From Hyphomicrobiales bacterium (GTDB lineage: Bacteria; Pseudomonadota; Alphaproteobacteria; Rhizobiales; Beijerinckiaceae), in the NCBI GenBank assembly GCA_003164915.1, contig PLRT01000178.1, positions 1 to 61,353 of the forward strand: a stretch of 61,353 nt of DNA. Reading direction: 5' to 3'. A program made the translations under genes and the position numbers. Shown in pieces: positions 29,617-49,210 of the stretch. The notes below the pieces were generated by a model, which searched no databases, was not told the origin of the DNA, and saw only the letters and a list, made by a program, of their open reading frames with translations. Position 1 is the stretch's first letter. Each line of letters begins with the position of its first letter.

Positions 29617-30549
29617 ATGACGTGGGGCCGTAGACGCCGAGTCGACTACCATAATTGGCGCAGTTCGGCGAGCGAAGAGGACCTGCGCGAATACGACGCC
29701 TTCGGTCCCTGGATCTATGAGATCAAGGACGAGGGCGATACGCCGAAGCGGTTCCGCGCCGCCTGCGGCCCCCACTACGGCGCCCGCTTTCTCCTCAAGG
29801 CGCCGCGCAACGTCGAGCGGCGGGACGCCCGCCCAGGCATGGACCTCTATGTCGCGGTGCTCGCCGTGCATGATCACGGCGCCAGCCTCATGAGTTTAAC
29901 CGGTGAGGGCGTCGTCACCCAGGACGTCGTCTGGAGCGATGTCGCTGCGCTCGAGAGCTACAGGGATCTCTTGTATAGCCGCTTGACGCTCAAGTTGCGC
30001 GACGGCGGCGCTTTCGACCTCGAATACAGCACCGTTTCGTCTGACCTGATGAGGAAGGTGACCGATTTCATCCGCTCCCGATGGATGCGCCACGGGGAGG
30101 CGCCGCTCCCTGTCGAACCGGAACCGGTCGTAACCATCGCCGACTTCGCTTTCCAAAATGAACTCGACGCCAAGCGGCGCAGCGGACCGCAGCCCGTCGC
30201 GCCAATTCACGCCGAGCCGGCCAACCGCTACTGCCGTGATGCGGCGAACCGCCGCCGGCTTTCGACCGGCGTGATGTTTCTCGAGGCGCCCAACGAGCTC
30301 ATCATCGTCAATCGCGACGAACCGACGCGCCGCTTCCTAGAGGCGCGCTACGCCGTGAAATGCGTCTTCGTCCCGTATGCCGGGGTCACTTCCTTCGCGC
30401 TTGTGCGCCCGCCCGTCGGCCGATCGAGGCGTTTTTACGAGCTGACGCTGCAGGTGGACAAGCAGGTCCTCCGGCAATCCTGCCTCGTCGCGCCCGAGCG
30501 GGTGCTGGCGCGACTGGCCGCGCACGGCGCAACGCAGACGAGCGCGTGA
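29617..30549 (+). CDS. Hypothetical protein (310 aa)
   Basis: RBS GGAGG before ATG; long ORF with protein-like composition (EYDAFGPWIYEI...PRNVERRDA.PGMDLY). Confidence 0.72.
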   Translation: MTWGRRRRVDYHNWRSSASEEDLREYDAFGPWIYEIKDEGDTPKRFRAACGPHYGARFLLKAPRNVERRDARPGMDLYVAVLAVHDHGASLMSLTGEGVVTQDVVWSDVAALESYRDLLYSRLTLKLRDGGAFDLEYSTVSSDLMRKVTDFIRSRWMRHGEAPLPVEPEPVVTIADFAFQNELDAKRRSGPQPVAPIHAEPANRYCRDAANRRRLSTGVMFLEAPNELIIVNRDEPTRRFLEARYAVKCVFVPYAGVTSFALVRPPVGRSRRFYELTLQVDKQVLRQSCLVAPERVLARLAAHGATQTSA

Positions 30550-30735
30550 GACGCGGTTGATGGCGATTCAATACGATCGCGCGCGCGCCATGTGCCGCGC
30601 GGCGGCGCGGTTCTTGTGACGCGAGCGCGCCGTCTGGCAGGCGACAACGCCGCCAATCGGAATATGCGCGACGCGCACGGCAGATTGCGTCTTACTGACC
30701 CGCCGACCGCCGGAGTGCGAGGCGGGATCGCTGTC

Positions 30736-30847
30736 GATGCAGCGATCGCTTCGACCAGCGCGTCCGCGGCGTCGTCAGGCAGCGCGGCGAAACGCGACCG
30801 AGATCACCCGGTGCGCCTTTCGCGAGTTCGGTCGGCGTTTGCATCAT
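30736..30847 (-). pseudogene. N-terminal remnant of a gene downstream of lacI, possibly a SIS-domain sugar-phosphate isomerase
   Basis: RBS GGAGG and ATGATG. With one base restored at GTTTCGCC it reads MMQTPTELAKGAPGDLGRV(F)AALPDDAADALVEAIAA, then degenerates. Confidence 0.3.
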
Positions 30848-30877
30848 CGTCTCGCCTCCCGGTCTCTGTCCTCGCAA

Positions 30878-31951
30878 TCAGACCGATTTGCGCTCGACAA
30901 TAGGGCATTCGACTTTGATTTGATCGAAGCGCGCGGCAAGCCGCGCCGCCATGTCGAACAGCAACTCGGCCGCGATCGTTCCCATTTCGAAATGGGGAAG
31001 AAGGACGGTCGTCAGCGGCGGATGGAGATGTCGCGCGATCTCCCGATCGTCGTATCCCATAACGGCGACGTCGTCCGGGATTCTCATCCCCAGTTCGCCA
31101 AGCGCTTCGTAGCAGCCCAAAGCCATCAAATCGTTGGCGCAAAAGATAGCCGTGGGCCGCGAGGGCAAAAGCATCAGCGCGCGGGCGCCTTCGTAGCCGG
31201 ATATCGGTTGCCAGTTGCCGTTGCGCACGAGCCCTGGATCGAACGGCAGATCGGCGGAGCTGAGCGCTCGACGATAACCCCGCAGGCGCTGTTGCGAGGC
31301 TTCCATGCTCGGCTCGCCATTGATGTAGCCAATGCGGCGGTGGCCGGCTTGCAGCAGGAAATTGGTGGCTGCGTGTCCGCCGGCGACCTCGCTCGGCACG
31401 ACCGACGGCAGCGCCCGGTTGGCGACGTGGCAATTCAGCAAGACCGTCGGCGTTTGCGGAAGCGTCGCGGGGAGATGAACGAGGCGGGTGTTGACGGTGG
31501 CGAAGATCAGCCCGAACAGCGGCTGAGACGCCAATTGCTCGAGCGCGGCCGCTTCCATGTCGACGTCGCCGCGCGTTACCGCGACCGTGACGGTGAGCCC
31601 GCGCTCCCACGCCTTTTCGCGCACGCCGTCGAAACCGATGGAGGTCCAAGGATCGGTCGAGATTTCGTCGCAGATGAAGCCGATCGTCGAGGCGCGCGAC
31701 AACGGCGCGTCTCCGCGGCGCCCCGGCTGGTAGCCGAGCTTTGCCGCCGCCTTGATCACCCGCTCGCGCGTTTGCGCCGACAGGCGCGCGCCGTCGGCGT
31801 GATTGAGCACCAACGACACGGTCGTCTGGGACACCCGCGCTTCGTTGGCGACATCGACCATTGTCGGACGGCGCGGGCGTCCGCCCCGCTTGAACCGCGG
31901 CCTCTCCTCGCCCAGCTTGTCAGCCCGTCGCGAAGGCATCGCCAGCGTCAC
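30878..31951 (-). CDS. LacI-family transcriptional regulator
   Basis: HTH PTMVDVANEARVSQTTVSLVLN, LGY.P, PTAIFCANDLMA.G, IPDD.AV.GYDD, P.LTTV. Confidence 0.95.
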   Translation of the reverse strand: MTLAMPSRRADKLGEERPRFKRGGRPRRPTMVDVANEARVSQTTVSLVLNHADGARLSAQTRERVIKAAAKLGYQPGRRGDAPLSRASTIGFICDEISTDPWTSIGFDGVREKAWERGLTVTVAVTRGDVDMEAAALEQLASQPLFGLIFATVNTRLVHLPATLPQTPTVLLNCHVANRALPSVVPSEVAGGHAATNFLLQAGHRRIGYINGEPSMEASQQRLRGYRRALSSADLPFDPGLVRNGNWQPISGYEGARALMLLPSRPTAIFCANDLMALGCYEALGELGMRIPDDVAVMGYDDREIARHLHPPLTTVLLPHFEMGTIAAELLFDMAARLAARFDQIKVECPIVERKSV

Positions 31952-32049
31952 CTCCCCGTTATTCTGTTGCGCATATTATTAGCACGGCAAGCCGTTGACA
32001 ACAAAATATAATATCCGAGCGTGGCGTTTCCGAGCGGATTTTGTCCCTT

Positions 32050-32065
32050 GACAATTATTATTGTC
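32050..32065. promoter_or_regulatory. AT-rich palindrome, candidate LacI operator overlapping a TTGACA
   Basis: GACAATTATTATTGTC; a related TATTATTA occurs near 31974-31981 upstream of lacI. Confidence 0.35.
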
Positions 32066-32197
32066 GGTGGGAACTTTTGTCGCAAACTCGAGCGGCGATC
32101 GGGACGCGCCGCGACAACAGCAAAGCCTACCTTGATCGGTACGAAACCGGGGCGTTCGGGGTCGACCGAAGTTGGGCTCGGAGCGGGAGGTAAGGGG

Positions 32198-32263
32198 ATG
32201 TCAGCGTTCGTGACCGGGGTGGTCATCGACATCCGCGATCTGACCATTCACGATGGCCCAGGA
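32198..32263 (+). pseudogene. N-terminal remnant of a glycyl-radical enzyme activating (radical SAM) protein
   Basis: RBS GGAGG then MSAFVTGVVIDIRDLTIHDGPG, matching the G.(I/V).dI....HDGPG start of GRE activases; the expected RT.VF.KGC...C..C does not follow. Confidence 0.5.
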
Positions 32264-32763
32264 CGGCGGCTGTCGGAGGAGGCCGAGAAAACCTTGCGGG
32301 ACGCGCCCATGGTCGGCCATAACAAAGACTGTAGCGCAATGACGAATACGCTGATCCCGCACAAAATAGCGGGCAATCCCGGTTCGACATTATCGTTATT
32401 CCCGACGATAATGACTTTTGCTCGCCCTTTGCCTGCCCAATGCAAAGGACCGCCTGCAGCTGGGTTTTACTCTGACGCTATTGGAATATCGGGCCGCTTA
32501 AGTGATTGATTATTGCTCAGTGGCGTACAATTGACTCAGCTCTCAAATTGATCATGATCAGATGACGTGATGTTGACATGAAACGCCTGTCGATTTTGGC
32601 CGCGTTGGCGATGATCCACCAGGCCCCGCTATCGAGCGAGGGCCAATTACAAAGGGGAGGAAACCAAGACCTTAGGGAATAAGTTAGAATGGACGGCCCA
32701 TCGAGGCCGCCGCAACACGGACCTGGGATTCAGCCGGGTCGCGGACATAGTGGGAGGAAGTTG

Positions 32764-33723
32764 ATGAACAATACTGGTAGAATCGCTGTCGCAATAGCGG
32801 CAGGCCTGACCTTGAGCTTCGCTGCGCTCTCGCCGACGCTCGCTGCCGATAAACCGCAGTTGGCCTTTGTGGCCAACGGGGCTTCGGACTTCTGGAAGGC
32901 GGCGGAAGCCGGCATGAAGAAGGCGCAGACCGAGCTGGCCGACTACGAGCTCATTTTCAGGTATCCTGACGTCGCCTCTGTCGCTAACCAGCAAGCGCTG
33001 ATGGACAACCTCGCGACGGCAGGCGTGAAAGCCATCATGGTCTCCGCCGTCGATCCGAAAGCGACGGACGTCCTCAACCGAATCGCGGGTGAGACTGCGC
33101 TCTTCACCACCGATTCCGACGCGCCCAACAGCAAGCGTATCGCCTACGTCGGTTCGTCCAACGTCCTCGCCGGCGGCCAGGCGGCGGAGATCGCCAAGAA
33201 GGCGATGCCGAACGGCGGCAAATGCATGGGCTTCGTCGGCCTGCTCGACGCCGCTAACTACAAGGAGCGCGCGCAGGGTTTCGTCGAAGGCCTCAAAGGA
33301 ACCAAAATCACGCTCGTCGACACGCGTGGCGACGGCATCGATCAAACCCGCGCCAAGAGCAATGTTGAAGACGTCTTGACGGCCGATCCCAGCATCAACT
33401 GTATGGTCGGTTTCTACTCTTACAACACGCCGCGCATTTACGAGGCGCTCAAGGGCGCCGGCAAGCTCGGCCAGATCACCGTCGTCGGCTTCGACGACGA
33501 TCCGATCACCCTCGGCGGCGTCAAAGAAGGAACGATTGCCGGCACGGTCGTGCAGCAGCCGTTTGAATGGGCTTACCAGGGCTTCAAGCTCATGGCGGCC
33601 TACCTCAAGGGCGACAAGTCCGGCATCCCGGCGAATGGTCAGATCATCATCCCGACCAAAATCCTCTACGCGGGCGACATCGACGCCTACGCAGCCAATC
33701 TGAAGGCAATGTCCGGAAAGTGA
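32764..33723 (+). CDS. Sugar ABC transporter periplasmic binding protein (RbsB-like)
   Basis: RBS GGAGG, signal peptide, SDFWK, TTDSD, YVGSSN..AG, VVGFD, VVQQPF. Confidence 0.93.
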   Translation: MNNTGRIAVAIAAGLTLSFAALSPTLAADKPQLAFVANGASDFWKAAEAGMKKAQTELADYELIFRYPDVASVANQQALMDNLATAGVKAIMVSAVDPKATDVLNRIAGETALFTTDSDAPNSKRIAYVGSSNVLAGGQAAEIAKKAMPNGGKCMGFVGLLDAANYKERAQGFVEGLKGTKITLVDTRGDGIDQTRAKSNVEDVLTADPSINCMVGFYSYNTPRIYEALKGAGKLGQITVVGFDDDPITLGGVKEGTIAGTVVQQPFEWAYQGFKLMAAYLKGDKSGIPANGQIIIPTKILYAGDIDAYAANLKAMSGK

Positions 33724-33731
33724 GGCAAGAC

Positions 33732-33821
33732 GGGAGCCGGCATCGGCGCGCCGCCTGAAGCCGGCTTCCTCTTACGCACGCGAAACATGGGGCGGCAGCC
33801 AATGACCGGCTTGCCGCCCCA
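33732..33821 (+). terminator. Two tandem GC-rich hairpins after the binding-protein gene (partial terminator or mRNA stabiliser)
   Basis: GGGAGCCGGC/GCCGGCTTCC (33732-33769) and TGGGGCGGCAGCC/GGCTTGCCGCCCCA (33788-33821). Confidence 0.6.
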
Positions 33822-33848
33822 AGAGGGTTCGTCTACTTCCGAGCGATC

Positions 33849-35402
33849 ATGACCAGCGTCGCTGCGCACATTGAACCGGCATCGGCCGAGCCGTTCCTTA
33901 CACTTGCCAACATCCGCAAGGTGTATCCGGGAGTGGTTGCGCTATCGAGCTTTTCGATGAGCGTCAGCCCGGGCGAGGTCATCGGCCTCGTCGGTGAGAA
34001 TGGGGCCGGCAAGTCGACGCTGATGAAGATTCTCGGTGGCGTCATCGCGCCGAGCCAGGGGACCATCACCATAGACGGAGTCCCGCGGGCGTCCCTGACA
34101 GTCGCCGACAGCATGGCTGCCGGCATCGCCTTCGTGCATCAGGAACTCAATCTTTTCGACAATCTCGATGTGGCGGCCAACATATTTGTTGGAAGAGAGC
34201 CACTCACCGGCGGTTTTCTCCGCCTGGTCGACGAAAAAAAGCAGCACGAGATGGTCATCCCGCTGCTCAAGCGGGTCGGCGCCAACTTTTCCGCGTTCGC
34301 GCCGTTGGCCAGTTTGTCCCTTGCGCAACGTCAGATGGTGGAAATCGCAAAAGCGCTGTCGGTAGACGCGCGGCTGGTCATCCTCGACGAACCGACTTCG
34401 ATCCTGCCGCTTTCCGAGACTGAGAAGCTGCTGGACGTGATAAGGGCGCTGAAGGCCGATGGCATCAGCGTCATTTTCATCTCGCACCGCCTGCATGAGA
34501 TCGAACTGATCGCCGACCGCGTCGTGGTGCTGCGCGACGGCGCTCTGGTGGGCACTCTGGACAGAGGCGAGATCGATCATCAGCGCATGGTCAAGTTGAT
34601 GATCGGTCGCGACATCAAGGTGCCGTCGGCGCCGCTTGCCAATGCGCCCGGCAATATCGCGATGTCGGCCGTCGGCGTCCGGACGGCCGCTCACCCCGCG
34701 CAGCCGGTAAGCCTCGATCTGCGCAATGGCGAAATACTCGGGCTTGCCGGTCTCGTCGGCTCCGGCCGGACGGAACTCGCACGCGCCATGTTCGGCGTCG
34801 ATCCGATCTACGGCGGCTATTTTGAACTCGACGGCGATAAATTTCGGCCCACTCATGCCTCTCAATCCATCGCCCGCGGAATCTTCCTCGTGCCCGAGGA
34901 CCGCCAAGGCGCCGGCGTCCTGCTCGACCTGTCGATCGCCGAAAACATCTCGTTGCCGGATCTGCCGGCGCACGCCACGAGCTTCTTTGTCAACCGCGGC
35001 CTGGAAATTCAAACCGCCGAGAGGCAGAAGCGCAATCTCGCCATCATGACGCCAAGCGTCGCGACGCGCACGGGCTCCCTATCGGGTGGAAACCAGCAGA
35101 AGGTGGTGCTCGCGAAATGGCTGGCGATGAGCCCGAAAGTCATGATCTTCGATGAGCCGACACGTGGCATCGATATCGGCGCCAAAGCGGAAATCTATCG
35201 CCTGATGCGCGAACTGGCCGACGTCGGCGTCGCCGTGCTGATGATCTCCAGCGACATGGAGGAGGTGATCGGGGTTTCTGACCGCATCGCCGTGATGCAC
35301 GAAGGCCGCGTTGCCGGCATTCTCAACCGAGACCAATTCAGCGGGGAAAACGTGCTGCTGTTGGCCGTGGGCAAGACCATCGGCGCGAAAACGGAACCAT
35401 GA
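33849..35402 (+). CDS. Sugar ABC transporter ATP-binding protein (CUT2, two NBDs)
   Basis: GENGAGKSTL, LDEPTS, ISHRL.E, GLVGSGRTEL, LSGGNQQKVVLAKW, DEPTRGID.GAK.EIY. Confidence 0.95.
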   Translation: MTSVAAHIEPASAEPFLTLANIRKVYPGVVALSSFSMSVSPGEVIGLVGENGAGKSTLMKILGGVIAPSQGTITIDGVPRASLTVADSMAAGIAFVHQELNLFDNLDVAANIFVGREPLTGGFLRLVDEKKQHEMVIPLLKRVGANFSAFAPLASLSLAQRQMVEIAKALSVDARLVILDEPTSILPLSETEKLLDVIRALKADGISVIFISHRLHEIELIADRVVVLRDGALVGTLDRGEIDHQRMVKLMIGRDIKVPSAPLANAPGNIAMSAVGVRTAAHPAQPVSLDLRNGEILGLAGLVGSGRTELARAMFGVDPIYGGYFELDGDKFRPTHASQSIARGIFLVPEDRQGAGVLLDLSIAENISLPDLPAHATSFFVNRGLEIQTAERQKRNLAIMTPSVATRTGSLSGGNQQKVVLAKWLAMSPKVMIFDEPTRGIDIGAKAEIYRLMRELADVGVAVLMISSDMEEVIGVSDRIAVMHEGRVAGILNRDQFSGENVLLLAVGKTIGAKTEP

Positions 35403-35457
35403 TCGAAATGCATTCCGGCACGGCGCGCAGTGGCGCCGCCCCCATGGGGAACATCGA

Positions 35458-36456
35458 ATGACCAAGAAAGATTTGGGCCTGCTGATCCTCATTCTGGCGG
35501 TGGGAGCGGTGGTCACGATGATCAACCCGCGCTTCATATTGCCGATCAATATCGCCAACACCGCCAACCTCGTCGGCATGTTCGGATTGTCGGCGCTCGG
35601 GCAGTCCATCGTCATTCTGACCGGCGGTATCGAGCTGTCGGTCGGTTCCGTGATTGCGCTGATAGGCGTGCTGTTCGTCGACTTTATCGCCACCCAGAAC
35701 ATCCCGTGGCCGGTCGCCGCGGCGCTGATGCTCGTGCTGGCGATAATGCTGGGCCTGACACACGGGCTGCTGATCACCAAGTTCAAGCTGCCGCCGTTCA
35801 TCGTCACGCTCTGTGGTTTGCTCATCTACCGCGGCATCGCCCGCTTCTATACGCGGGACGCAACCGCCGGTTTCGCTTTCGGTCAGAACTTTCCCAAGCT
35901 CGAGTTCATTACCGCCGGGCGCTCTTTCGGCGTGCCGAACTCCTTCATTGGCCTGATCATCGCCGCCGCCATCATGTGGATCGTGGTGCACCGGTCGGTG
36001 TTCGGTCGATACCTCTATGCGGCGGGCAAGAATGAGGAGGCCGCCCGCTTCTCCGGCATCAAGACCGACCAGGTGATCATCGCGGCGTATGTCATCTGTC
36101 AGGTGTTGACGATGTTGTCGGCCATCTACTTCGCCATGTACACCCGCTCGATCTCGCCAGCCTCCCACGGCAACTTTTATGAGCTTTACGCCATTGCCGC
36201 TGCGGTGCTCGGCGGTTTCTCGCTGCGCGGCGGCGAGGGCTCGATCATCGGCGCTCTGTTGGGCGTGGTTTTGTTGCAGGAGTTGCAGAACCTGGTGAAT
36301 CTCCTCGGCATCCCCTCGTCGTTGAACTTTGCCGTTGTGGGCGGTGTGATCCTGCTCGGCGTGCTGGGGGATCAGCAATGGGGATCGTTCCGCGAGCGCC
36401 GTCGGATCGAGGACGCAGCGCGCGGGCGCGAACCCAAACAGGCCTCCGCCGAGTAG
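35458..36456 (+). CDS. Sugar ABC transporter permease (RbsC-like)
   Basis: ILTGGIELSVGS, PPFIVTL, FGRYLYA.G.NEEAARFSGI, YELYAIAAAVLGG.SL.GG.G. Confidence 0.94.
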   Translation: MTKKDLGLLILILAVGAVVTMINPRFILPINIANTANLVGMFGLSALGQSIVILTGGIELSVGSVIALIGVLFVDFIATQNIPWPVAAALMLVLAIMLGLTHGLLITKFKLPPFIVTLCGLLIYRGIARFYTRDATAGFAFGQNFPKLEFITAGRSFGVPNSFIGLIIAAAIMWIVVHRSVFGRYLYAAGKNEEAARFSGIKTDQVIIAAYVICQVLTMLSAIYFAMYTRSISPASHGNFYELYAIAAAVLGGFSLRGGEGSIIGALLGVVLLQELQNLVNLLGIPSSLNFAVVGGVILLGVLGDQQWGSFRERRRIEDAARGREPKQASAE

Positions 36457-36654
36457 CCAAACAAGAAAGCCAACCCCGGTCGGTTCGCTCAGCCCGCGAC
36501 TTCAGACCCGGCGTGTCGAGCCTCGGGATGAGGGCGTGCACGACGGCGCCCACGTCGACTGCTGTCGAGACGCTGCCCGCTTCCTGGTGGGAATCGCTGT
36601 CGAATGCGAAACCGGATTGTTCCCAGATGATCGCCAGTCGCCGCAGCGACGAGG

Positions 36655-36773
36655 GGCTGTGGCCGCCTGTGGGTCTCGCCGCGGCGTCACGCGATGGTCG
36701 GGAGACGTTTCTGGCCGGCGTCGCCCGCCTTGCTCTCGCTCACAGGAAGCCTGATCGCCATGGCCTTTCTTGA
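36655..36773 (+). pseudogene. dgoK: Probable 3' remnant of 2-dehydro-3-deoxygalactonokinase
   Basis: AVAACG / LAAASRDGRETFLAGVARLA (frameshifted) resembles the DgoK C-terminus (DG..AFLAG) and overlaps the dgoA start; no 5' part is present. Confidence 0.4.
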
Positions 36774-37383
36774 TCGCTTCGACACGCAATTCGCCCGCTC
36801 TCCCTTCGTCGCGATCCTGCGTGGCCTGACGCCCGAAGTCGCCGTCGGAGTCGGCGAGGCGCTCGTCGCCGCCGGCGTCACGCTCATCGAAGTGCCGCTC
36901 AACTCGCCCGAGCCGTTCGTCTCGATCGGCCGCATGGCGAAAGCGTTGGGAGATCGGGCCATCGTCGGCGCCGGCACGGTGCTGACGACCGAGGATGTCG
37001 GCCGCGTCGCGGAGATCGGCGGCGGTCTGATCGTCTCGCCCCACACCGACACCGGCATCATCCGCGCGACGAAGGCGGCGGGCCTGGTCAGCATCCCGGG
37101 TTTCGTGACCCCGACCGAAGCCTTCACGGCGCTCGGCGCCGGCGCCGATGCGCTCAAGCTCTTTCCCGCCGAATTGTTCAGCCCGGCGGTCGTCATGGCA
37201 ATCGGGGTTGTCTTGCCGAAGGCGGCGCGGCTGCTCCTCGTCGGCGGCGTCGATCCCGAGACCCCGCGCCTCTACGCAGCCACTCGCGTCGCCGGCTATG
37301 GCGTCGGATCGGCTCTTTACCGCCCGGGCGACGACGCACAGAGCGTCGCCGAGAAGGCTCGCCGCTTCGTCGCCGCCCTGTGA
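36760..37383 (+). CDS. dgoA: 2-dehydro-3-deoxy-6-phosphogalactonate aldolase
   Basis: VAILRGLTP, IEVPLNSP.P..SI, GAGTV, TPTEAF.AL..GA.ALKLFPAE, VGGV, G.GS.LYRPG. Confidence 0.9.
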   Translation: MAFLDRFDTQFARSPFVAILRGLTPEVAVGVGEALVAAGVTLIEVPLNSPEPFVSIGRMAKALGDRAIVGAGTVLTTEDVGRVAEIGGGLIVSPHTDTGIIRATKAAGLVSIPGFVTPTEAFTALGAGADALKLFPAELFSPAVVMAIGVVLPKAARLLLVGGVDPETPRLYAATRVAGYGVGSALYRPGDDAQSVAEKARRFVAAL

Positions 37384-37566: not shown

Positions 37567-38403
37567 TTACAATCCAGCGGCGATGCCGGGCGCTCTTATG
37601 TTGGAAGGGAATGTCTCGGCCGTCTTCTGTCGGTAGGCTTGCCATTCCGGCTCATTCTGGAACACCCACTCGTAATAGTCGCGCTGGGTGAGCGCGCCGG
37701 CGGCGTCCTGATCCAGGATAACCTTGCAATAGGGGTGCAACTGTATCGCCGATGCGCTGATCATGGCGGTTATCGGGCCCTCGACGGCCTTGGCGAGGAT
37801 GGCGGCCTTGGCCCGCCCCGTCGCGAGCAGCAGCAGCTCACGCGCATCGAGAATCGTCCCCACGCCCATGGTGAGCGCGCGCGCCGGCACACGATCCGGG
37901 TCGCCGCCGAACATCCCGGCGTTCTGGCGCCGCGTGGCGGGAGTCAGCGCCTTCTCGCGCGTTCGCGACATCAGCGCCGACAGAGGTTCGTTGAAGCCGA
38001 TATGGCCGTCTTCGCCGATCCCGAGAAGCTGCAAGTCGATGCCTCCCGCCTGCTCGATCCGCCGTTCATAACTTGCCACCTCTTTGCCGAGATCGGACGC
38101 CATGCCGTCGAGCAGATGGGTATTGGTCTTCACGATGTTGATCTTGTCGAACAGGCGTCCGTCCATGTAGCGGCGATAGGAGTGTTCGTCCCGTGTCGGT
38201 ACGCCGACATATTCGTCGAGGTTGAAGGTGCGGCAGCGCGAGAAATCCACGCCCAGGGTCGCGAGCCGTTGGTAGACCGCCTCCATCGTGCGTCCTGTCG
38301 CGAGTCCCAGCACCAGGTCGGGCTTCGCCTCCACCCGGGCGGCTATCAACCGAGCCGTAAGCATCGCGGCGGCGTCCGCATCGGGTTGAACAACGACTTC
38401 CAT
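37567..38403 (-). CDS. nagB: Glucosamine-6-phosphate deaminase
   Basis: LGLATG.T, TFNLDEY, GGIDLQLLGIG..GHIGFNEP, TMGVGTI, ASAIQLH. Confidence 0.95.
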   Translation of the reverse strand: MEVVVQPDADAAAMLTARLIAARVEAKPDLVLGLATGRTMEAVYQRLATLGVDFSRCRTFNLDEYVGVPTRDEHSYRRYMDGRLFDKINIVKTNTHLLDGMASDLGKEVASYERRIEQAGGIDLQLLGIGEDGHIGFNEPLSALMSRTREKALTPATRRQNAGMFGGDPDRVPARALTMGVGTILDARELLLLATGRAKAAILAKAVEGPITAMISASAIQLHPYCKVILDQDAAGALTQRDYYEWVFQNEPEWQAYRQKTAETFPSNIRAPGIAAGL

Positions 38404-38406
38404 GCC

Positions 38407-39285
38407 TCAAGCTCCCGTATTTCGTCGGAACAGCGCGTCCAAGCCATCGCCCGCCGCAATGAATTGGCCTTTGTCGAGCACGTCGTGGAAGTCGCCGTCT
38501 TTCCAGCCGCGCAGCCGATATAAAGTCGCGAAGGTGAACTGCGGCGCCGAACCGCCCTGTCCTCCGACCAATTCGGCGCCCCGGCGCACGTTGTCCATCA
38601 TCCAGGCGGGCAGGCGCAGGTGGTAGGGGTTGCGCGAGACCTCGCCCACATGTTGCGACAGCGCCGCGACCAAATCCGCCAGATCGCCAGCCGAAGATTC
38701 GATCATCAGATTGGGCGAGTCCATCGCGCGCCAATATTCGGTCTCGACGACGAGGCACGCGAGCGTCGGCAACCGACGCATGGCGTCGACGACCAGATGG
38801 TGTGCGCCGACGTGCGTCGTGTTCCAATCCTCGGCATGGGGCAGGAAGACGACGCTCGGCCGCTCGGCGATCAGCACCTCGGCCACGGCGTCGACCGCAA
38901 GGGCCCAGCGTCCCGGATCGCGCGCGCGCGACGCCAGATTGATCCCTTCCAAACCGGTTCGGTCTGGGTTGGCCAGACCGAAACCGACGTAGGCGCAGGC
39001 GGCCTGCAACTCACGCCACCGGCCGCTTCGACGCTCGACCAAACTTCCAAGCGTCACGGCCACGTCGATCACGACGAAGCCGCGCTCGCGTAGCAGACGC
39101 AGCGGTAGGCCGCCCGTGAGCAGCTCGTCGTCCGGGTGCGGCGCGAACAATAAGGCCTTGGGCGCTTCGCCGACTTTCGACGAAGCCGCCGGATGCGTCA
39201 TTTTCGCCAAGCCGATCGCCCTGCCGGCGCTCAGCGCGGTCACGAACGTTTCGACCCAGCTTTGGTAAGGATTTTCGGCCGTCAT
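38407..39285 (-). CDS. PIG-L/LmbE-family Zn-dependent de-N-acetylase
   Basis: FAPHPDDE metal motif, R..E...AC, FLPH..D...TH. Confidence 0.85.
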   Translation of the reverse strand: MTAENPYQSWVETFVTALSAGRAIGLAKMTHPAASSKVGEAPKALLFAPHPDDELLTGGLPLRLLRERGFVVIDVAVTLGSLVERRSGRWRELQAACAYVGFGLANPDRTGLEGINLASRARDPGRWALAVDAVAEVLIAERPSVVFLPHAEDWNTTHVGAHHLVVDAMRRLPTLACLVVETEYWRAMDSPNLMIESSAGDLADLVAALSQHVGEVSRNPYHLRLPAWMMDNVRRGAELVGGQGGSAPQFTFATLYRLRGWKDGDFHDVLDKGQFIAAGDGLDALFRRNTGA

Positions 39286-40190
39286 CGCTTCACTCCCGCG
39301 GCGACCGCCGAGCGCGCCATGATCAACGCGCCTTGAACCGAATCGTAGCGCGCGGGCGCGAGCCGGGCGCGCAGCGCCTTCCCGAGGAAGGGCTCATAGA
39401 ATTTTCCCAAACCTCCAAGCATGCTGCAGGGCAGCGGCCGATGGCTCTTGGCGGCCAAGGCCAGGCCGACGCGGTCGAGTTCCGCGGCGGCGGCGCGCAC
39501 GATCGACAACGCGAGCGGGGTGTCATGCCCCGCATATTCGACGACCAGCGGCGCGATCTCGCCGAACTCGGTCTCGCGCGCAGCGTTGGCCCAGGACACG
39601 AGTCGTCCCTGATCGCCTTCGAAGCGAGCGTTCACCGCCTCGAGCAGAGGATCGACGGGCTCCCGCCCGTCCAGCCATTGCAGCGTCTTTCGGACGGCCT
39701 CGAGGCCCAACAGGGCGCCGCCGCCCTCGTCGCCGTGCGGGAAGCCCCAGCCGCCGACCCGGCTCTCGCGTCCGCCCTCGACCTGAAAGCCGATCGTGCC
39801 GGTGCCGACAGCGATCACGGCCCCGTCCTCACCGCCATGGGCGCCGAGGCAAGCGGTATAACCGTCCGACCGAACGATGAGACTGGTGAAAGGGTGCGCC
39901 ACGGCGAGAAAATGATCGAGAGCGATCGCAACCTCAGTGCCCGCGATCCCTATCCCGCAATGCAGACGATGTGCGCCGTCGTCCAGGCTGAATCCGGCCT
40001 GGGAAAGCGCCTGAGCCAGCGCATCTCGGATCGAGCGCCAGCTTTCCTCGACCGACAGGCGAATGTTGGCCGCTCCGCCGTGCCCCTGCCCGACGACGCG
40101 GCCCTTCGCGTCCTCGAGGCGAAGCAGCGTCTTCGAGGCGCCGCCGTCTACGCCGATGAAGAAGTCCGAAACGTCTCGCGCCGTGCTCAT
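39282..40190 (-). CDS. BadF/BcrA-type (ASKHA) sugar kinase, probable GlcNAc/GlcN kinase
   Basis: IGVDGGASKT, G.ANI, SD...ACLGAH.G.DG, GTG, GGWGF..GDEG.G..LG. Confidence 0.87.
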   Translation of the reverse strand: MSTARDVSDFFIGVDGGASKTLLRLEDAKGRVVGQGHGGAANIRLSVEESWRSIRDALAQALSQAGFSLDDGAHRLHCGIGIAGTEVAIALDHFLAVAHPFTSLIVRSDGYTACLGAHGGEDGAVIAVGTGTIGFQVEGGRESRVGGWGFPHGDEGGGALLGLEAVRKTLQWLDGREPVDPLLEAVNARFEGDQGRLVSWANAARETEFGEIAPLVVEYAGHDTPLALSIVRAAAAELDRVGLALAAKSHRPLPCSMLGGLGKFYEPFLGKALRARLAPARYDSVQGALIMARSAVAAGVKR

Positions 40191-41965
40191 GGCGCGCCGA
40201 TCCGCGGGGCGGCGGCCGCGCTTCCCCTGTCGAACGATTGCTCGATTTCTTCCAGCGTCTTGCCCTTCGTCTCCGGAAGAATGAAGGCCGAAATCAGGAA
40301 GTAGATGACCGTGCAGATCGCCCAGAAGGCGAACATCGCGTAGTAGCCATAATAGCCCACGACCGGAAGGAAAACGCCGGCCATCACGGTCGAGACGCCT
40401 TGATTGATGAGCAGCGCGATGCCCATGCCCGTCGACCTAATGCGCGTAGGCATGAGTTCGGATAGCGCGAGCCACACCACCACGCCCGGCCCGACCGCGA
40501 ATGAAGCGATGAACAAGCACATCAACGCCATCATCAGCCAGCCCGTCGACTCGGTCGAAACGGGTCCGAAGCTGGCGCGCTTGATTGTAAGGGCCGCGGT
40601 GTTGGCGGGATCGGGGGCAATTCGGAGGACGGGATCCGGGTCGGTACTGAGCACCGTGTCGACCTTGTCGCCGCCGCCGCCGCGATCGTAGTAGACGGTC
40701 AGCACCGACGATCGACCGGCCGGGATCTCGCCGAGGGCCGAAGTGGCCAAAGGTATCGCGAGTCCGCCCGCGCTCACGGCCGCCTGAACCTGGGCGCGCA
40801 CGTCATGGCGATCGGCCTCGACGCCGTGGAACACCAGTGCGGCGGCGGCCAGGGAGATGATGATTCCCGCCGTGCCGATCTTGAGCAGGAAAGTTCGACC
40901 CTTGCGATCGACCAGAGCGACGGCCACGAGCGTCATCACCATGTTCAGCACGACCACGGCGACGTCGCCGCCGGTCGCCATCGAGGGGCTCAGACCCGCT
41001 TGCTTGAGAATGACGACGAGGAAAGCCAGGATCGAGTTGATCCCGGTGGTCTGATTGAGACCGAGGATGGCGCAGGCCAGCAGGAACGGAAGCACGTACT
41101 TTCGCTGCAACAAGGAGCCGACCACGCCGGATGAAGACGTCGAGGCTTCGTCGATCGGCGCGTCGATTTCCGCCAGCTCCAGTTCGGCCTCTGCTTCGGA
41201 GCAAGATCGTCGGATCGCCGCGAGCGCCTTGTCCCGCTGGCCCCGACGCATCAGCCACCGCGGCGACTCGCTGAGAAAGAAGGCCCCGACCAGGAAGATC
41301 AGGCCGGGATAAACGACGGACAGGAACATTCCCCGCCAGGCCGCGTTCTGCGCGGCGGCGATGAGGGTCGCATTGCCGGCGGCCGCGGCGATCGCCGCCT
41401 GCGCGCCGTGCGTATAGGCCCATCCGACCACCGACGCGATCGCGATGCCGACGGTGAGCATGAACTGGAAAATGCCAGTGCCCGCGCCGCGGCTCTTCGC
41501 GCTCAGGCATTCCGCCAGATAGAGCGGAACGACGACCGCGATGACGCCGCCGCTCATGCCCTGCAACAACCGCCCGCCGAAAAGAGGCAAGAAACTCTGT
41601 GAGATCACGATCAGTCCGACGCTAACCACGAACATCAGGCCGCTCACGATCATCATCGTCTTGCGCCCGAGCCAGTCCGCGAGCAGCCCCGCCACGACCG
41701 AGGAAAGCATGCTGCCGCCCATGACGGCGGCGACGATGATCGACGTCTGAAGAACGGTGAGATTGACCGTCTGGTTGAGGTACAGCAACGCCGCCGCGAT
41801 GATGCCGACGTCGATGCCGTAGAGCAGGCCGCCCATTCCCGAAATGAAGAGCAGATACCAATGATAGAGTTTCTTTCGACCCGCGGATCCCTCGCGCTCG
41901 CTTCCCGTGGTTGAAGGCGGCCGTCTGGCGGGACTGGCGTTCGCGAACTTCGGCTGCGGGGTCAT
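40187..41965 (-). CDS. MFS sugar porter family transporter
   Basis: GGLLYG.D.G.I, DWLGRK, PLYLAE, ESPRWL, QTTGIN, VDRKGR, SELMPTRIRS, PETKGKTLEEIE. Confidence 0.93.
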   Translation of the reverse strand: MTPQPKFANASPARRPPSTTGSEREGSAGRKKLYHWYLLFISGMGGLLYGIDVGIIAAALLYLNQTVNLTVLQTSIIVAAVMGGSMLSSVVAGLLADWLGRKTMMIVSGLMFVVSVGLIVISQSFLPLFGGRLLQGMSGGVIAVVVPLYLAECLSAKSRGAGTGIFQFMLTVGIAIASVVGWAYTHGAQAAIAAAAGNATLIAAAQNAAWRGMFLSVVYPGLIFLVGAFFLSESPRWLMRRGQRDKALAAIRRSCSEAEAELELAEIDAPIDEASTSSSGVVGSLLQRKYVLPFLLACAILGLNQTTGINSILAFLVVILKQAGLSPSMATGGDVAVVVLNMVMTLVAVALVDRKGRTFLLKIGTAGIIISLAAAALVFHGVEADRHDVRAQVQAAVSAGGLAIPLATSALGEIPAGRSSVLTVYYDRGGGGDKVDTVLSTDPDPVLRIAPDPANTAALTIKRASFGPVSTESTGWLMMALMCLFIASFAVGPGVVVWLALSELMPTRIRSTGMGIALLINQGVSTVMAGVFLPVVGYYGYYAMFAFWAICTVIYFLISAFILPETKGKTLEEIEQSFDRGSAAAAPRIGAP

Positions 41966-42142
41966 TTGAGCGCCTCTGGGCCATATTCCGTTGACGGAAC
42001 CGACGGCAGCGCGCAACCGATCATTAAGCGAGGTCCGGCGAAAGATTCGGAATCTACCTATCCGTGTGGCGTCCGCTCCCGGCTCGACGACCGCGCCGCC
42101 CAGGTCCGCGCGTCGCCGCCGTGCTTTTGCGATTCGCATTCT

Positions 42143-42958
42143 TCACGGCTGGATGGACCTGCGGCCGTCCGTCCTCCCTTCCTTGGGTTGAGGCGGCTTC
42201 AGACGAACCATCACGATCTTCTGAGGATCGCCGACGCGCTCGCTGTCGACGACGCCCGATGCTTCGACAAGGTCGCTCAAGCGGGCAAACCCATAATTTC
42301 GGGGGTCGAATTCCGGCGATTGTTTCGCAATGTGAGAACCGACGCGACCAAGACTCGCCCATCCGCTTTCGTCGGAGACGTCAGCGATCGCATTTTTCAG
42401 CATGGCGAGCAGGGTCGCATCCTTGGCGTTCTTCTTCGCCTTCGCCTTGGCCTCTTCTTGCGCCGCAGGCGTAGCCGACGCTCCCCCCCCTGGCGCATTC
42501 AACACGTCGAAATAGACGAATTTGTCGCACGCGGTGACGAATGGACGAGGCGTCTTGCGCTCGCCAAAGCCGTAGACGGTCACGCCTTGTTCGCGGACGC
42601 GCGCGGCGAGCCGGGCAAAATCGCTATCGCTCGAGACGATGCAGAAACCATCGAAGCGCGCGGTGTAGAGCAGGTCCATGGCGTCGATGATCATTGCGCC
42701 ATCCGTGGCGTTCTTTCCGGTCGTGTAGGCGAATTGCTGGATCGGCTGGATGGAGTGCTCCAACAGACAGTCCTTCCAGCCGCCGAGGTTCGGCTTGGTC
42801 CAGTCGCCATAGATACGGCGGACGCCGGCCACGCCATATTTCGCCACCTCGGCCAGAAGCCCGGCGACGATTTTGGGGGAAGCGTTGTCGCCGTCGATCA
42901 GGAGGGCGAGCGTCGCGCCCTTATCGAGGTGCTGGTCGCCTGTCGCCTGCGTCGCCAT
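42143..42958 (-). CDS. NYN-domain (LabA/DUF88-like PIN) protein with C-terminal OST-HTH/LOTUS domain
   Basis: LIDGDN, RRIYGDW, GKNATD.AMIIDAMD, VSSDSDF, ACD.F.Y; C-terminal GWA.LG.VG......PEFDPRNYGF.RLS.L. Confidence 0.92.
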   Translation of the reverse strand: MATQATGDQHLDKGATLALLIDGDNASPKIVAGLLAEVAKYGVAGVRRIYGDWTKPNLGGWKDCLLEHSIQPIQQFAYTTGKNATDGAMIIDAMDLLYTARFDGFCIVSSDSDFARLAARVREQGVTVYGFGERKTPRPFVTACDKFVYFDVLNAPGGGASATPAAQEEAKAKAKKNAKDATLLAMLKNAIADVSDESGWASLGRVGSHIAKQSPEFDPRNYGFARLSDLVEASGVVDSERVGDPQKIVMVRLKPPQPKEGRTDGRRSIQP

Positions 42959-46985: not shown

Positions 46986-49172
46986 ATGTCGAAAGTCCTC
47001 ACGTTCCTGTTGTGGTCGTTCAGCGCCGTTGCGACTTTGGGCGTCGCCAGCCTGCCGCTTGGCATCGAGGCGCAACTCGCGCTGGTCGTCGGCGCGCTGG
47101 CCGCGATGCTGGCGCTGAAGCTGCTCGACGTCAGAGGCGCGTTCCGCCCGGTGTTCCTCGCGCTCGGCACCTTCGTCATCCTGCGCTACCTGTTCTGGCG
47201 CGTGTCGAGCACGATTCCGCCGATCAGTTCTCCGGCCGACTTCGCCGCCGGCGTCGCGCTGCTGATCGCCGAAATCTACTGCGTTGTGATGCTGTTCCTC
47301 AGCCTGTTCACCGTCGCCGATCCAATCGAGCGGCCGAAGGCGCCCCGCATCGCCGAAGAGGACGCGCCGACGGTCGACGTGTTCGTCCCGAGCTACAACG
47401 AGAGCATCGAGATCGTCGCGCCGACTTTGGCCGCGGCGAAACGGCTGCGGTACCCCGAGGGAAAGCTCAACATCTTCCTGCTCGACGACGGCGCCACCGA
47501 GGAGAAGCTGCAATCGGACGATCCGGCCGTCGCACGCCGCGCGCACAACCGGCGCGAAAGCTTGCAGGCGGTTTGCGCCGAACTGGGCGTCCATTATCTT
47601 TCGCGCGAGGACAACAAGCACGCCAAGGCGGGCAATCTCAATTCGGGTCTCGCCCAAAGCCAGGGCGATCTCGTCGCGGTGTTCGACGCCGACCACGCGC
47701 CTGCCCGGGACTTCCTGACCGAGACTGTCGGCTTTTTCGCGCAGGACGAGAAGCTGTTCCTCGTCCAGACGCCGCACTTCTTCCTCAATCCCGATCCGAT
47801 TGAGCGCAACGTCGGCGCCGTCGGCATGCCGGCCGAGAACGAAATGTTCTACGGCCTCGTGCAGAAGGGTCTCGACAAATGGAACGCCGCGTTCTTCTGC
47901 GGGTCGGCGGCGTTGCTTCGTCGCCAGGCGCTCGAAGAGGTCGGCGGTTTCCACGGCTCGTCGGTCACCGAGGACGCCGAGACCGCGCTGGAACTGCACG
48001 CGCACGGTTGGAACAGCGTCTATGTCGACAAGCCGCTGATCGCCGGGCTGCAGCCGGAGACCTTCGAGTCGTTCATCGGCCAGCGCTCGCGCTGGGCGCG
48101 CGGAATGGCGCAGATCCTGCTGCTCAAGAACCCGCTGTTCATTCCCGGCCTGAAGATGGCGCAGCGGCTGTGCTACCTGTCGAGCAGCCTGTTCTGGCTC
48201 TTCCCGCTGTCTCGGATGGTGTTCATCTTCGCTCCGCTCATGTATATCTTCTTCAATATGAAGATCTACGTCGCGAACGGGCAGGAGTTCATCGCCTACA
48301 CGCTGACCTACATGCTCTCGGCGCTGCTGATCCAGAGCTATGTGTTCGGCCGGGTGCGCTGGCCGTGGACGTCCGATCTCTACGAATATGTTCAGGCGGT
48401 GAAGTTGTTCCCGGCTGTCCTCGGCGTCTTTCTCGACCCGCGCCGGCCGAAGTTCAACGTCACCGCCAAGGGCCAGACGCTCGACGAAAACCAATTGTCC
48501 AGCCTGGCGTGGCCTTATTTCGCGCTGTTCGCCTTGGTGGCGGTCAGCATGGTCGCGCTTGCTCTCCGATTCGTCCACGAGCCCGACTCGCGCGATCTGA
48601 TCAGCGTGGTCGGCGTGTGGAGCGCGTTCAATCTGTGCCTCACCGGCGTCGCGCTCGGGGTGGTGTCGGAGCGGCGCGAGCGGCGCAGCGTGCCGCGCGT
48701 CCCCAGCCGGCTGGCGGCGAGCCTGGAATTCGGCTCGCAGACCCTGCCGGTAGCGATCGAGGACATGTCGTTCGGCGGACTGAAGGTGCGCGCGCTCGAC
48801 GCCGTCAAGCTGCCGCAGAAGGGCACCGGCGTGCTGCGCGTCGCGACCGGCGGCGCGGCTGGGCGGGTTCTCGAGACCCCGATCGTCGTAGCCGGGCGGC
48901 GCGTCAGCGACGAGGCGCGCGGCGTCGGCCTCAAATTCTATGGGGTCAATGGCGATCGCTTCAAGATCATCGCCAGCGTGATGTTCTTCTCAATCGACCC
49001 GATCTATCAGCGGCGATCGCAGCAATACGTGCGCCTCGGCGTCCTGCGCGGGTCGTTCAATTTCGCGCTCGCGGCGCTGAACCAGACGTTCCGAGGCTTC
49101 TATTACGCCTTCTTCCGCCGCAGCCAGGCGCGGCCGCCGCTCGGCCGTTCGTCGGAGAGCTCCGCCTCTTGA
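46986..49172 (+). CDS. bcsA: Cellulose synthase catalytic subunit (GT2 + PilZ)
   Basis: DDG, HAKAGN, DADH, QTPH, FFCGS, TED, QRSRW, FNVTAK; PilZ RSVPR and DMSFGG. Confidence 0.97.
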   Translation: MSKVLTFLLWSFSAVATLGVASLPLGIEAQLALVVGALAAMLALKLLDVRGAFRPVFLALGTFVILRYLFWRVSSTIPPISSPADFAAGVALLIAEIYCVVMLFLSLFTVADPIERPKAPRIAEEDAPTVDVFVPSYNESIEIVAPTLAAAKRLRYPEGKLNIFLLDDGATEEKLQSDDPAVARRAHNRRESLQAVCAELGVHYLSREDNKHAKAGNLNSGLAQSQGDLVAVFDADHAPARDFLTETVGFFAQDEKLFLVQTPHFFLNPDPIERNVGAVGMPAENEMFYGLVQKGLDKWNAAFFCGSAALLRRQALEEVGGFHGSSVTEDAETALELHAHGWNSVYVDKPLIAGLQPETFESFIGQRSRWARGMAQILLLKNPLFIPGLKMAQRLCYLSSSLFWLFPLSRMVFIFAPLMYIFFNMKIYVANGQEFIAYTLTYMLSALLIQSYVFGRVRWPWTSDLYEYVQAVKLFPAVLGVFLDPRRPKFNVTAKGQTLDENQLSSLAWPYFALFALVAVSMVALALRFVHEPDSRDLISVVGVWSAFNLCLTGVALGVVSERRERRSVPRVPSRLAASLEFGSQTLPVAIEDMSFGGLKVRALDAVKLPQKGTGVLRVATGGAAGRVLETPIVVAGRRVSDEARGVGLKFYGVNGDRFKIIASVMFFSIDPIYQRRSQQYVRLGVLRGSFNFALAALNQTFRGFYYAFFRRSQARPPLGRSSESSAS

Positions 49173-49210
49173 GGGCGAAGCCGTCGTTCCCATCGCGAGA
49201 GTTTACGCGC

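What the first reader, a model, noticed from the sequence alone, without database searches (positions are those of the whole stretch)
37567..41965. NagA-independent amino-sugar operon: MFS porter, BadF-type kinase, PIG-L deacetylase, NagB
Seen: four co-oriented genes with ATGA overlaps or a 3-bp gap, and no nagA, PTS or regulator. Known: canonical GlcNAc catabolism uses the amidohydrolase NagA, while LmbE/PIG-L enzymes deacetylate GlcNAc moieties, for example in archaeal chitin catabolism. Inference: a complete alternative route (import, phosphorylate, deacetylate, deaminate to fructose-6-P) in which a PIG-L enzyme replaces NagA or handles a different N-acyl sugar.
Basis: partly seen in the sequence, partly recalled or inferred. 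Interest (0 to 1): 0.72.

Follow-up and report, generated by a model that had tools for sequence, protein, structure and literature searches.

The report
Unrelated stand-in for deacetylase NagA
Four adjacent genes in a peat bacterium likely import and break down the cell-wall sugar N-acetylglucosamine, and the third is predicted to be an unrelated enzyme that does the job of the textbook enzyme NagA, because in other bacteria its relatives sit in NagA's gene position and mostly occur where a standard NagA is not found.

Summary
Observation confirmed: sugar porter, BadF kinase, PIG-L/LmbE protein and NagB, co-oriented, with two ATGA overlaps and a 3-bp gap. The four-gene order recurs in 7 of 80 metagenome loci. 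The PIG-L protein belongs to an uncharacterised subfamily (15-23% identity to solved LmbE enzymes) present in 46 of 301 Verrucomicrobiota genomes. Its relatives lie next to three different sources of GlcNAc-6-phosphate: kinases, a GlcNAc-specific PTS (NagE), and AnmK/MurQ. Behind one ROK-like kinase the next gene is either this one or nagA. Canonical nagA occurs in 2 of 46 carriers against 143 of 255 non-carriers, but the kinase tree needs only two label changes, so these counts are mostly shared ancestry. Best reading: a non-homologous GlcNAc-6-P deacetylase (about 0.7; no assay). Corrections: this genome carries two canonical nagA genes elsewhere, so the host is not NagA-independent; the cassette looks horizontally acquired (0 of 150 family relatives). 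A divergent NagA-like gene is present in 16 of 46 carriers. Ten literature searches found no report of this family. The scan noted only a distinct NagB-LmbE fusion on other DNA.

The parts
40187..41965 (-). Sugar-porter family MFS transporter, 592 aa, with an insert of about 100 residues between the two Sugar_tr stretches; predicted amino-sugar importer
   Evidence: TIGR00879 over cut-off; best PDB hit GlcP, E 4e-47; 53-85% identical copies upstream of the kinase in 7 of 80 loci; substrate inferred
39282..40190 (-). BadF/BadG-type sugar kinase, 302 aa; predicted GlcNAc kinase
   Evidence: NagK_SO3507 E 8e-62, below cut-off; 1ZC6 probable GlcNAc kinase E 8e-44; also hexokinase, MurNAc/GlcNAc kinase, human NAGK
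38407..39285 (-). PIG-L/LmbE-fold metallohydrolase, 292 aa, of an uncharacterised subfamily; predicted GlcNAc-6-phosphate deacetylase
   Evidence: Pfam PIG-L; H50-P-D52-D53 plus H158 invariant; model pLDDT 88.7 matches LmbE enzymes at Z 17.8-21.8, next fold 8.2; contexts
37567..38403 (-). Glucosamine-6-phosphate deaminase NagB, 278 aa
   Evidence: TIGR00502 over cut-off; PDB NagB hits to E 2e-50 with the G-x-D-G-H-I-x-F-N-E-P stretch kept; 73% identical to the Chthoniobacterales copy in L008
41966..42142 (-). Intergenic leader between the NYN-domain gene and the transporter; likely promoter region
   Evidence: RNA contigs of three runs (two studies) stop at 42008, 42004 and 41971 with no depth in 42024-42274 (weak hint); no sigma-70 match; not conserved in three homologues

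Best explanation
The four genes form a conserved cassette that likely catabolises N-acetylglucosamine: the porter would import it, the BadF kinase would make GlcNAc-6-phosphate, the PIG-L protein is predicted to remove the acetyl group in place of NagA, and NagB would deaminate glucosamine-6-phosphate to fructose-6-phosphate. Shown: gene order, family assignments, intact metal and base residues, LmbE fold of the model, conservation, gene contexts. Inferred: every substrate. Chemistry inferred from the LmbE family: a divalent metal held by H50, D53 and H158 activates water, D52 is the general base; the subfamily's invariant R85, R89, R218, R235 and H150 are candidates for binding the phosphate (not modelled). 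In this genome the cassette is likely a horizontal acquisition that duplicates resident nagA clusters.
For: (1) NagB is bona fide and needs GlcN-6-P. (2) Relatives sit with three unrelated producers of GlcNAc-6-P: kinases (ROK-like 39, BadF 3 of 80 genome loci); PIG-L-nagB-PTS EI fusion-nagE (2 of 80 genome loci, NagE of L013 over the TIGR01998 equivalog cut-off, 661.8 vs 553.2; EI fusion in 10 and NagE in 5 of 80 metagenome loci); and AnmK/MurQ (L014 murQ directly upstream, L016 anmK-PIG-L-nagB). PTS and MurQ yield the phosphorylated sugar (established knowledge), which argues against a free-sugar enzyme. L060 pairs it with a SIS-domain protein (weak GlmD/GlmS hits) and has a GH20 within 3.5 kb. 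(3) Same slot, other gene: the ROK-like kinase is followed by PIG-L in 18 of 46 phylum loci (both kinase and nagB in 13) and by nagA in 16 of 16 loci picked for adjacency from the listings, and lies beside nagA in 2 of 20 further nagA loci (reversed order in one). (4) nagA over cut-off in 2 of 46 carriers vs 143 of 255 non-carriers. (5) The genomes of L013, L014, L016 and L060 show no full-length nagA. (6) Catalytic motif intact in 122-130 of 130 diverse relatives. (7) RNA contigs cover all four genes and bridge all three junctions in run X15 (no proof of one transcript).
Against: No enzyme assay exists. This genome has two canonical nagA genes, so nothing is missing here. The anti-correlation is phylogenetically clumped: the kinase tree needs only 2 label changes (1), so Fisher P values overstate it. 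A divergent NagA-like amidohydrolase with intact catalytic residues occurs in 16 of 46 carriers (E<=1e-30; 180 of 255 non-carriers) and in 24 of 50 genomes of the best hits, 3 of them over cut-off including L009's genome with the PTS operon. 32 of 80 genome loci and 21 of 46 phylum loci have no amino-sugar gene of my panel nearby (some contigs are short), among them the closest genome hits L003 and L004; L003's genome shows neither nagA nor nagB. The LmbE HxDH stretch reads N155-T-T157-H158 here (His in 88, Asn in 35 of 130 relatives; Asp mostly Thr), and the fold also hosts a hydratase, GalB (Z 20.6). Absences are from MAGs of unstated completeness.
Confidence: 0.7

Rival explanations
1. The enzyme deacetylates free GlcNAc or chitobiose, as archaeal Dac does, and the kinase then phosphorylates glucosamine.
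For: Nearest solved relatives by profile are diacetylchitobiose deacetylases (E 3e-5; Foldseek ranks 2-10). The window's kinase is below the NagK cut-off, so GlcN versus GlcNAc is open. A bacterial GlcNAc deacetylase, CmCBDA, exists (PMC8619855, passages; its family was not stated there).
Against: Operons with NagE-PTS and with MurQ have no kinase beside them and deliver GlcNAc-6-P. The ROK-like kinase partners nagA in other genomes, implying it makes GlcNAc-6-P. Identity to Dac is only 16-18%.
Confidence: 0.12
2. It is a phospho-sugar de-N-acylase for a different or wider set of substrates (ManNAc-6-P, GalNAc-6-P, N-glycolyl or other acyl groups), kept beside NagA to widen the range.
For: Coexists with two nagA genes here and with NagA-like genes in 16 of 46 carriers. 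Altered second motif. The porter is of a different family from the resident ABC system.
Against: No epimerase or isomerase for another hexosamine in the four-gene cassette; NagE passes the GlcNAc-specific cut-off; NagB passes the GlcN-6-P equivalog cut-off.
Confidence: 0.12
3. The protein is not a deacetylase but an accessory enzyme of amino-sugar metabolism (hydratase or metabolite repair), with deacetylation done by the divergent NagA-like proteins.
For: GalB shows the fold can be a hydratase. The acid His/Asp pair is changed. Divergent NagA-like proteins keep their catalytic residues.
Against: 30 of 46 carriers have no NagA-like hit at E<=1e-30. The HXDD+H motif, the superfamily signature in PMC4101496, is intact; in rat PIG-L the equivalent His154Ala mutant kept activity (same paper, passages), so loss of that His need not stop deacetylation.
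Confidence: 0.06

Closest known systems
Canonical nag pathway (NagK or NagE-PTS, NagA, NagB)
   Same: Same inferred route and end product; true NagB; kinase related to Shewanella-type NagK; relatives use nagE-PTS operons of the usual layout.
   Different: The deacetylase slot holds a Rossmann-like LmbE protein, not a TIM-barrel amidohydrolase (fold of NagA recalled). Non-orthologous forms are described for NagB and NagK (PMC5583593, passages), none for NagA in the passages seen.
LmbE/PIG-L deacetylases (BshB, MshB, PIG-L, teicoplanin deacetylase, TT1542)
   Same: PF02585, HXDD+H motif, same fold (Z 17.8-21.8).
   Different: 14-23% identity; BshB1 score 28 vs cut-off 182.5; HxDH reads NxTH or HxTH; own invariant C-terminal motif around W228-R235. 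The word 'phosphate' does not occur in the main text of the 2014 review PMC4101496. Database labels such as 'N-acetylglucosamine malate deacetylase 1' look like over-annotation.
Archaeal diacetylchitobiose deacetylase (Dac) pathway
   Same: LmbE enzyme serving amino-sugar catabolism; best profile hits.
   Different: Dac acts on unphosphorylated sugar before the kinase (recalled); here contexts point to the 6-phosphate. 16-18% identity.
Long NagB (PRK02122; NagB with a C-terminal extension, Andersson et al. PMC1484493)
   Same: Also links NagB to an LmbE-like domain (earlier finding e1-5124974), never assayed according to that note.
   Different: The window's PIG-L protein does not match the PRK02122 model at E<=0.001, and no NagB fusion appeared among 3 longer homologues (weak test). 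Separate lineage.

Membership tests
LmbE/PIG-L superfamily | PF02585 domain above gathering threshold | tested here: met
   40.4 bits vs 28.2
LmbE/PIG-L superfamily | HXD1D2 + H metal motif, 97-148 residues between ligands 2 and 3 (PMC4101496) | tested here: met
   H50, D52, D53, H158; spacing about 105; invariant in 28 of 28, 122-130 of 130
LmbE/PIG-L superfamily | Rossmann-like alpha/beta fold | tested here: met
   Predicted model, pLDDT 88.7; Z 21.8, rmsd 2.6 over 203 residues to 2IXD
LmbE/PIG-L superfamily | Second His (BshB His110, MshB His144) and following Asp | tested here: not met
   N155 and T157 in the window protein; His in 88 and Asn in 35 of 130 relatives, Thr in 93. Not part of the defining motif; the rat PIG-L H154A mutant stays active
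LmbE/PIG-L superfamily | Metal-dependent hydrolysis of an N-acylglucosamine | not testable with these tools
   Needs an assay
BshB1 / MshB | Equivalog score; pathway neighbours | tested here: not met
   TIGR04001 28.1 vs 182.5; the three neighbours are a porter, a kinase and NagB
NagA (amidohydrolase, TIGR00221) | Sequence family | tested here: not met
   No Amidohydro_1 or nagA hit for the protein; works like NagA by inference only
NagA function (EC 3.5.1.25) | Deacetylates GlcNAc-6-P | not testable with these tools
   Context evidence only
NagB (TIGR00502) | Equivalog cut-off and catalytic stretch | tested here: met
   241.9 vs 236.9; alignment to solved NagB
NagK, BadF type (NF046058) | Equivalog cut-off | tested here: inconclusive
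   209 vs 370 bits, full length, E 8e-62; sugar specificity open
Sugar porter (TIGR00879) | Subfamily cut-off | tested here: met
   247.7 vs 237.8
Long NagB C-terminal domain (PRK02122) | Homology to the fused extension | tested here: inconclusive
   No hit at E<=0.001; no NagB fusion among longer homologues, a search that can miss relatives

The most novel reading that the evidence does not exclude
This subfamily is a second, independently evolved GlcNAc-6-phosphate deacetylase: the first LmbE-fold enzyme to act on a sugar phosphate in central catabolism, working without the usual acid His-Asp pair. It is the old form in Verrucomicrobiota, displaced in place by nagA in at least two lineages, partnered by an undescribed 465-aa ROK-like GlcNAc kinase (199 of 301 genomes), and it travels as a four-gene cassette among peat and soil bacteria.
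Probability: 0.4. Interest if true: 0.72.

Novelty: new variant of a known kind. Interest (0 to 1): 0.6.

Why it matters
NagA is treated as the obligatory step that funnels chitin, peptidoglycan and mucin GlcNAc into glycolysis, and metabolic reconstructions score its absence as a pathway gap. A non-homologous replacement would close that gap for roughly one in ten Verrucomicrobiota species sampled (30 of 301 carry this gene and show no NagA-like hit), correct thousands of proteins now labelled generically or as BshB1 (4348 hits), and give a convergent-evolution pair (TIM barrel versus LmbE fold) for one reaction. It is cheap to test: one complementation of an E. coli nagA mutant.

Tried and rejected
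Host lacks nagA: rejected (two over cut-off). Kinase-deacetylase fusions as Rosetta evidence: P0122 (BadF + PIG-L) loses similarity at kinase residue ~270 and looks frameshifted, P0121 (ROK-like + PIG-L) is a singleton; not used. Fisher P values (5e-12) not relied on because of shared ancestry. Conserved operator upstream: none seen; promoter and terminator scan at chance level. Plasmid carriage: no match. GC/GC3 signal of recent transfer: none clear (operon GC 0.64-0.68, GC3 0.78-0.83, genome GC 0.68). ESM Atlas returned only unnamed PIG-L clusters. NagS link: the SIS gene beside the L010 operon matches SCO4393 (E 1e-33), but PMC12680351 reports that distant homologues of about 30% identity lack NagS activity, so it is not used as support. 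(nagA protein query in five genomes, no hit) had no positive control and adds nothing. A joint 38581-39305 in one RNA contig (side 22 letters) was treated as noise. The careful PIG-L tree did not finish; the quick tree was used. nagA status of 30 of the 80 genome loci was not searched. No complex prediction was run. Literature: searches found no paper assigning GlcNAc-6-P deacetylase activity to a PIG-L/LmbE protein; the library lacks most subscription journals, and no supplements were read, so curated subsystem tables could hold such a prediction.
Full report
Observation. The four ORFs are real and lie as described on the minus strand: transporter 41965-40187, kinase 40190-39282, PIG-L protein 39285-38407, nagB 38403-37567, with two ATGA overlaps and a 3-bp gap. 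Pfam and NCBIfam give sugar porter (over cut-off), BadF kinase (NagK model, below cut-off), PIG-L, and nagB (over cut-off). Flanks are unrelated: a NYN/OST-HTH gene upstream and a convergent 2-dehydro-3-deoxy-6-phosphogalactonate aldolase with an ABC sugar system downstream. DNA identical to the stretch occurs in peat and permafrost metagenomes (14 of 20 holders may be its source). In four RNA runs chosen because they hold the stretch, contigs cover all four genes; in run X15 they bridge each junction, and in three runs they stop just upstream of the transporter. Contigs cannot show a single transcript, so this is a weak hint.

The host is not NagA-less. The genome (88% complete) has two nagA genes over cut-off: one on C50 with ABC transporter, MurQ-like, BadF kinase, GntR and SIS genes, one on C146 with a BadF kinase. 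The PIG-L subfamily was found in 0 of 150 family relatives and a close transporter in 0 of 200 order relatives. In the quick tree the window's protein sits in a clade whose named members are Pseudomonadota (support 97), joined to a Verrucomicrobiota clade that includes the Chthoniobacterales loci (98), and nested among Verrucomicrobiota under a midpoint root; nagB is 73% identical to a Chthoniobacterales copy. Horizontal acquisition is likely; the donor is not established.

The deacetylase family. It is large (4348 hits among 7997 candidates scored; 348 clusters at 50% identity with E<=1e-30) and unnamed beyond generic labels. H50-P-D52-D53 and H158 are invariant in 28 aligned members and kept in 122-130 of 130 rows of a wider set (the 129 of 150 representatives with 250-360 aa plus the window). 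This is the HXDD+H signature of the 2014 review PMC4101496 (read: part 1 of 6 and keyword passages). The model (pLDDT 88.7) matches only LmbE-fold chains above Z 17 (BC1534, TT1542, GalB, Dac, LnmX, Dbv21, MshB; 14-23% identity), the next fold at Z 8.2. The usual HxDH reads NxTH here and mostly HxTH in the wider family; several arginines and a C-terminal motif are family-specific.

What it acts on: gene context. Among the 80 best of 313 genome loci, within 3.5 kb: ROK-like kinase 39, BadF kinase 3, NagB 7, SIS-domain deaminase candidate with GH20 1, PTS EI fusion plus NagE 2, AnmK 2, MurQ 1; any of these 48 of 80, none 32 of 80. Among the 80 best of 375 metagenome loci: whole four-gene cassette 7, NagB 27, PTS EI fusion 10, NagE 5, ROK-like 35. 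NagE of L013 passes the GlcNAc-specific equivalog cut-off. NagE-PTS and MurQ both yield GlcNAc-6-P (established biochemistry, recalled), so in those operons a deacetylase between them and NagB must take the phosphorylated sugar. The genomes of L013, L014, L016 and L060 show no full-length nagA, whereas L009's does (MAGs, completeness not given).

Displacement. In 301 genomes of one phylum (Verrucomicrobiota: centring on G015, titled Verrucomicrobiia, returned the same handles as centring on G030), 46 carry the subfamily. Of 46 loci from 45 of them, 18 have the ROK-like kinase upstream, 20 nagB downstream, 13 both. nagA over cut-off occurs in 2 of 46 carriers and 143 of 255 non-carriers (E<=1e-66 used as proxy, which reproduces the tool's tally of 145). 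The same kinase is followed directly by nagA in 16 of 16 loci that I picked because the listed coordinates were adjacent and lies beside it in 2 of 20 other nagA loci. On the kinase tree the partner label changes twice. So the swap in place is real, but rests on two events, not on hundreds of genomes.

Against. No assay. A divergent NagA-like clade with intact catalytic residues is present in 16 of 46 carriers and in 24 of 50 best-hit genomes, so many carriers may have another deacetylase. Many homologues, including the two closest genome hits, stand alone. The second motif is altered and the fold includes a hydratase.

Mechanism. Import by the porter (inferred), ATP-dependent 6-phosphorylation (inferred from family), metal-dependent amide hydrolysis with D52 as base (inferred from the motif), deamination-isomerisation by NagB (family member, activity inferred). 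Confidence 0.7; free-sugar deacetylase 0.12; other acyl-sugar phosphate 0.12; not a deacetylase 0.06.

Known versus new. It is a member of the LmbE/PIG-L superfamily, not of BshB1, MshB, Dac or NagA; it probably works like NagA. Ten searches found no paper giving this function to a PIG-L protein. PMC5583593 (passages) lists non-orthologous NagB and NagK forms and has no mention of PIG-L or LmbE in its main text. PMC1484493 (passages) describes the long NagB without naming its extension. PMC8619855 (passages) uses a free-GlcNAc deacetylase. PMC12680351 (passages) covers NagS and NagA. Other listed papers were seen as listings only; subscription journals and supplements were not visible. The scan's own index had no look-alike by sequence or place and one note on a long NagB-LmbE fusion.

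Verdict. A real, conserved, mobile cassette whose third gene is a good candidate for a non-homologous GlcNAc-6-P deacetylase. New variant of a known pathway; interest 0.6; one complementation test would settle it.

Noticed in passing
L033:4598-6007 and 199 of 301 Verrucomicrobiota genomes: A conserved 465-aa ROK-like protein with an N-terminal extension of about 150 residues, below all ROK cut-offs and with no close solved structure (best E 0.004); sits next to either nagA or the PIG-L gene. Candidate new GlcNAc kinase family.
   Followed up: partly
L130-L133, L138-L140: A divergent NagA-like amidohydrolase clade (130-205 bits, below the nagA cut-off; THLGNG and RHxN stretches) with catalytic residues kept, in two loci next to a distant NagB-like gene (32-33%). 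Substrate unknown.
   Followed up: partly
L010:3416-4983: A GntR/UTRA regulator diverges from a SIS gene (PRK02947, homologous to Streptomyces NagS/SCO4393, E 1e-33) that replaces the transporter in front of kinase-PIG-L-nagB.
   Followed up: partly
P0123, P0202: Two proteins fuse an inositol-monophosphatase-like domain to this PIG-L subfamily, which hints at a sugar-phosphate substrate or a biosynthetic use.
   Followed up: no
33 of 80 genome loci, e.g. L033:6780-7328: A cytidine/guanine-deaminase-family gene follows the PIG-L gene in many Verrucomicrobiota loci, often overlapping its stop; link to amino sugars unexplained.
   Followed up: no
window 40187-41965, residues about 385-480: The porter has an insert of about 100 residues between its two Sugar_tr stretches, kept in L144, L150 and L171; it appears to be missing from L145.
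   Followed up: no
window 46986-51460: Cellulose-synthase-like gene (GT2 + PilZ) followed by a long ORF that may be its partner subunit.
   Followed up: no
window 29617-37383: LacI regulator divergent from a sugar ABC transporter and a 2-dehydro-3-deoxy-6-phosphogalactonate aldolase; ORF 29617-30549 (310 aa) has no Pfam match.
   Followed up: no
L026, L032, L033, L042, L047, L053, L057, L063, L069: Record titles (Bifidobacterium, Binatia, Limnocylindrales, Proteobacteria) disagree with Verrucomicrobiota-like gene content; for L033 the phylum sample coincided with that of a Verrucomicrobiia genome. Submitter labels may be wrong.
   Followed up: partly
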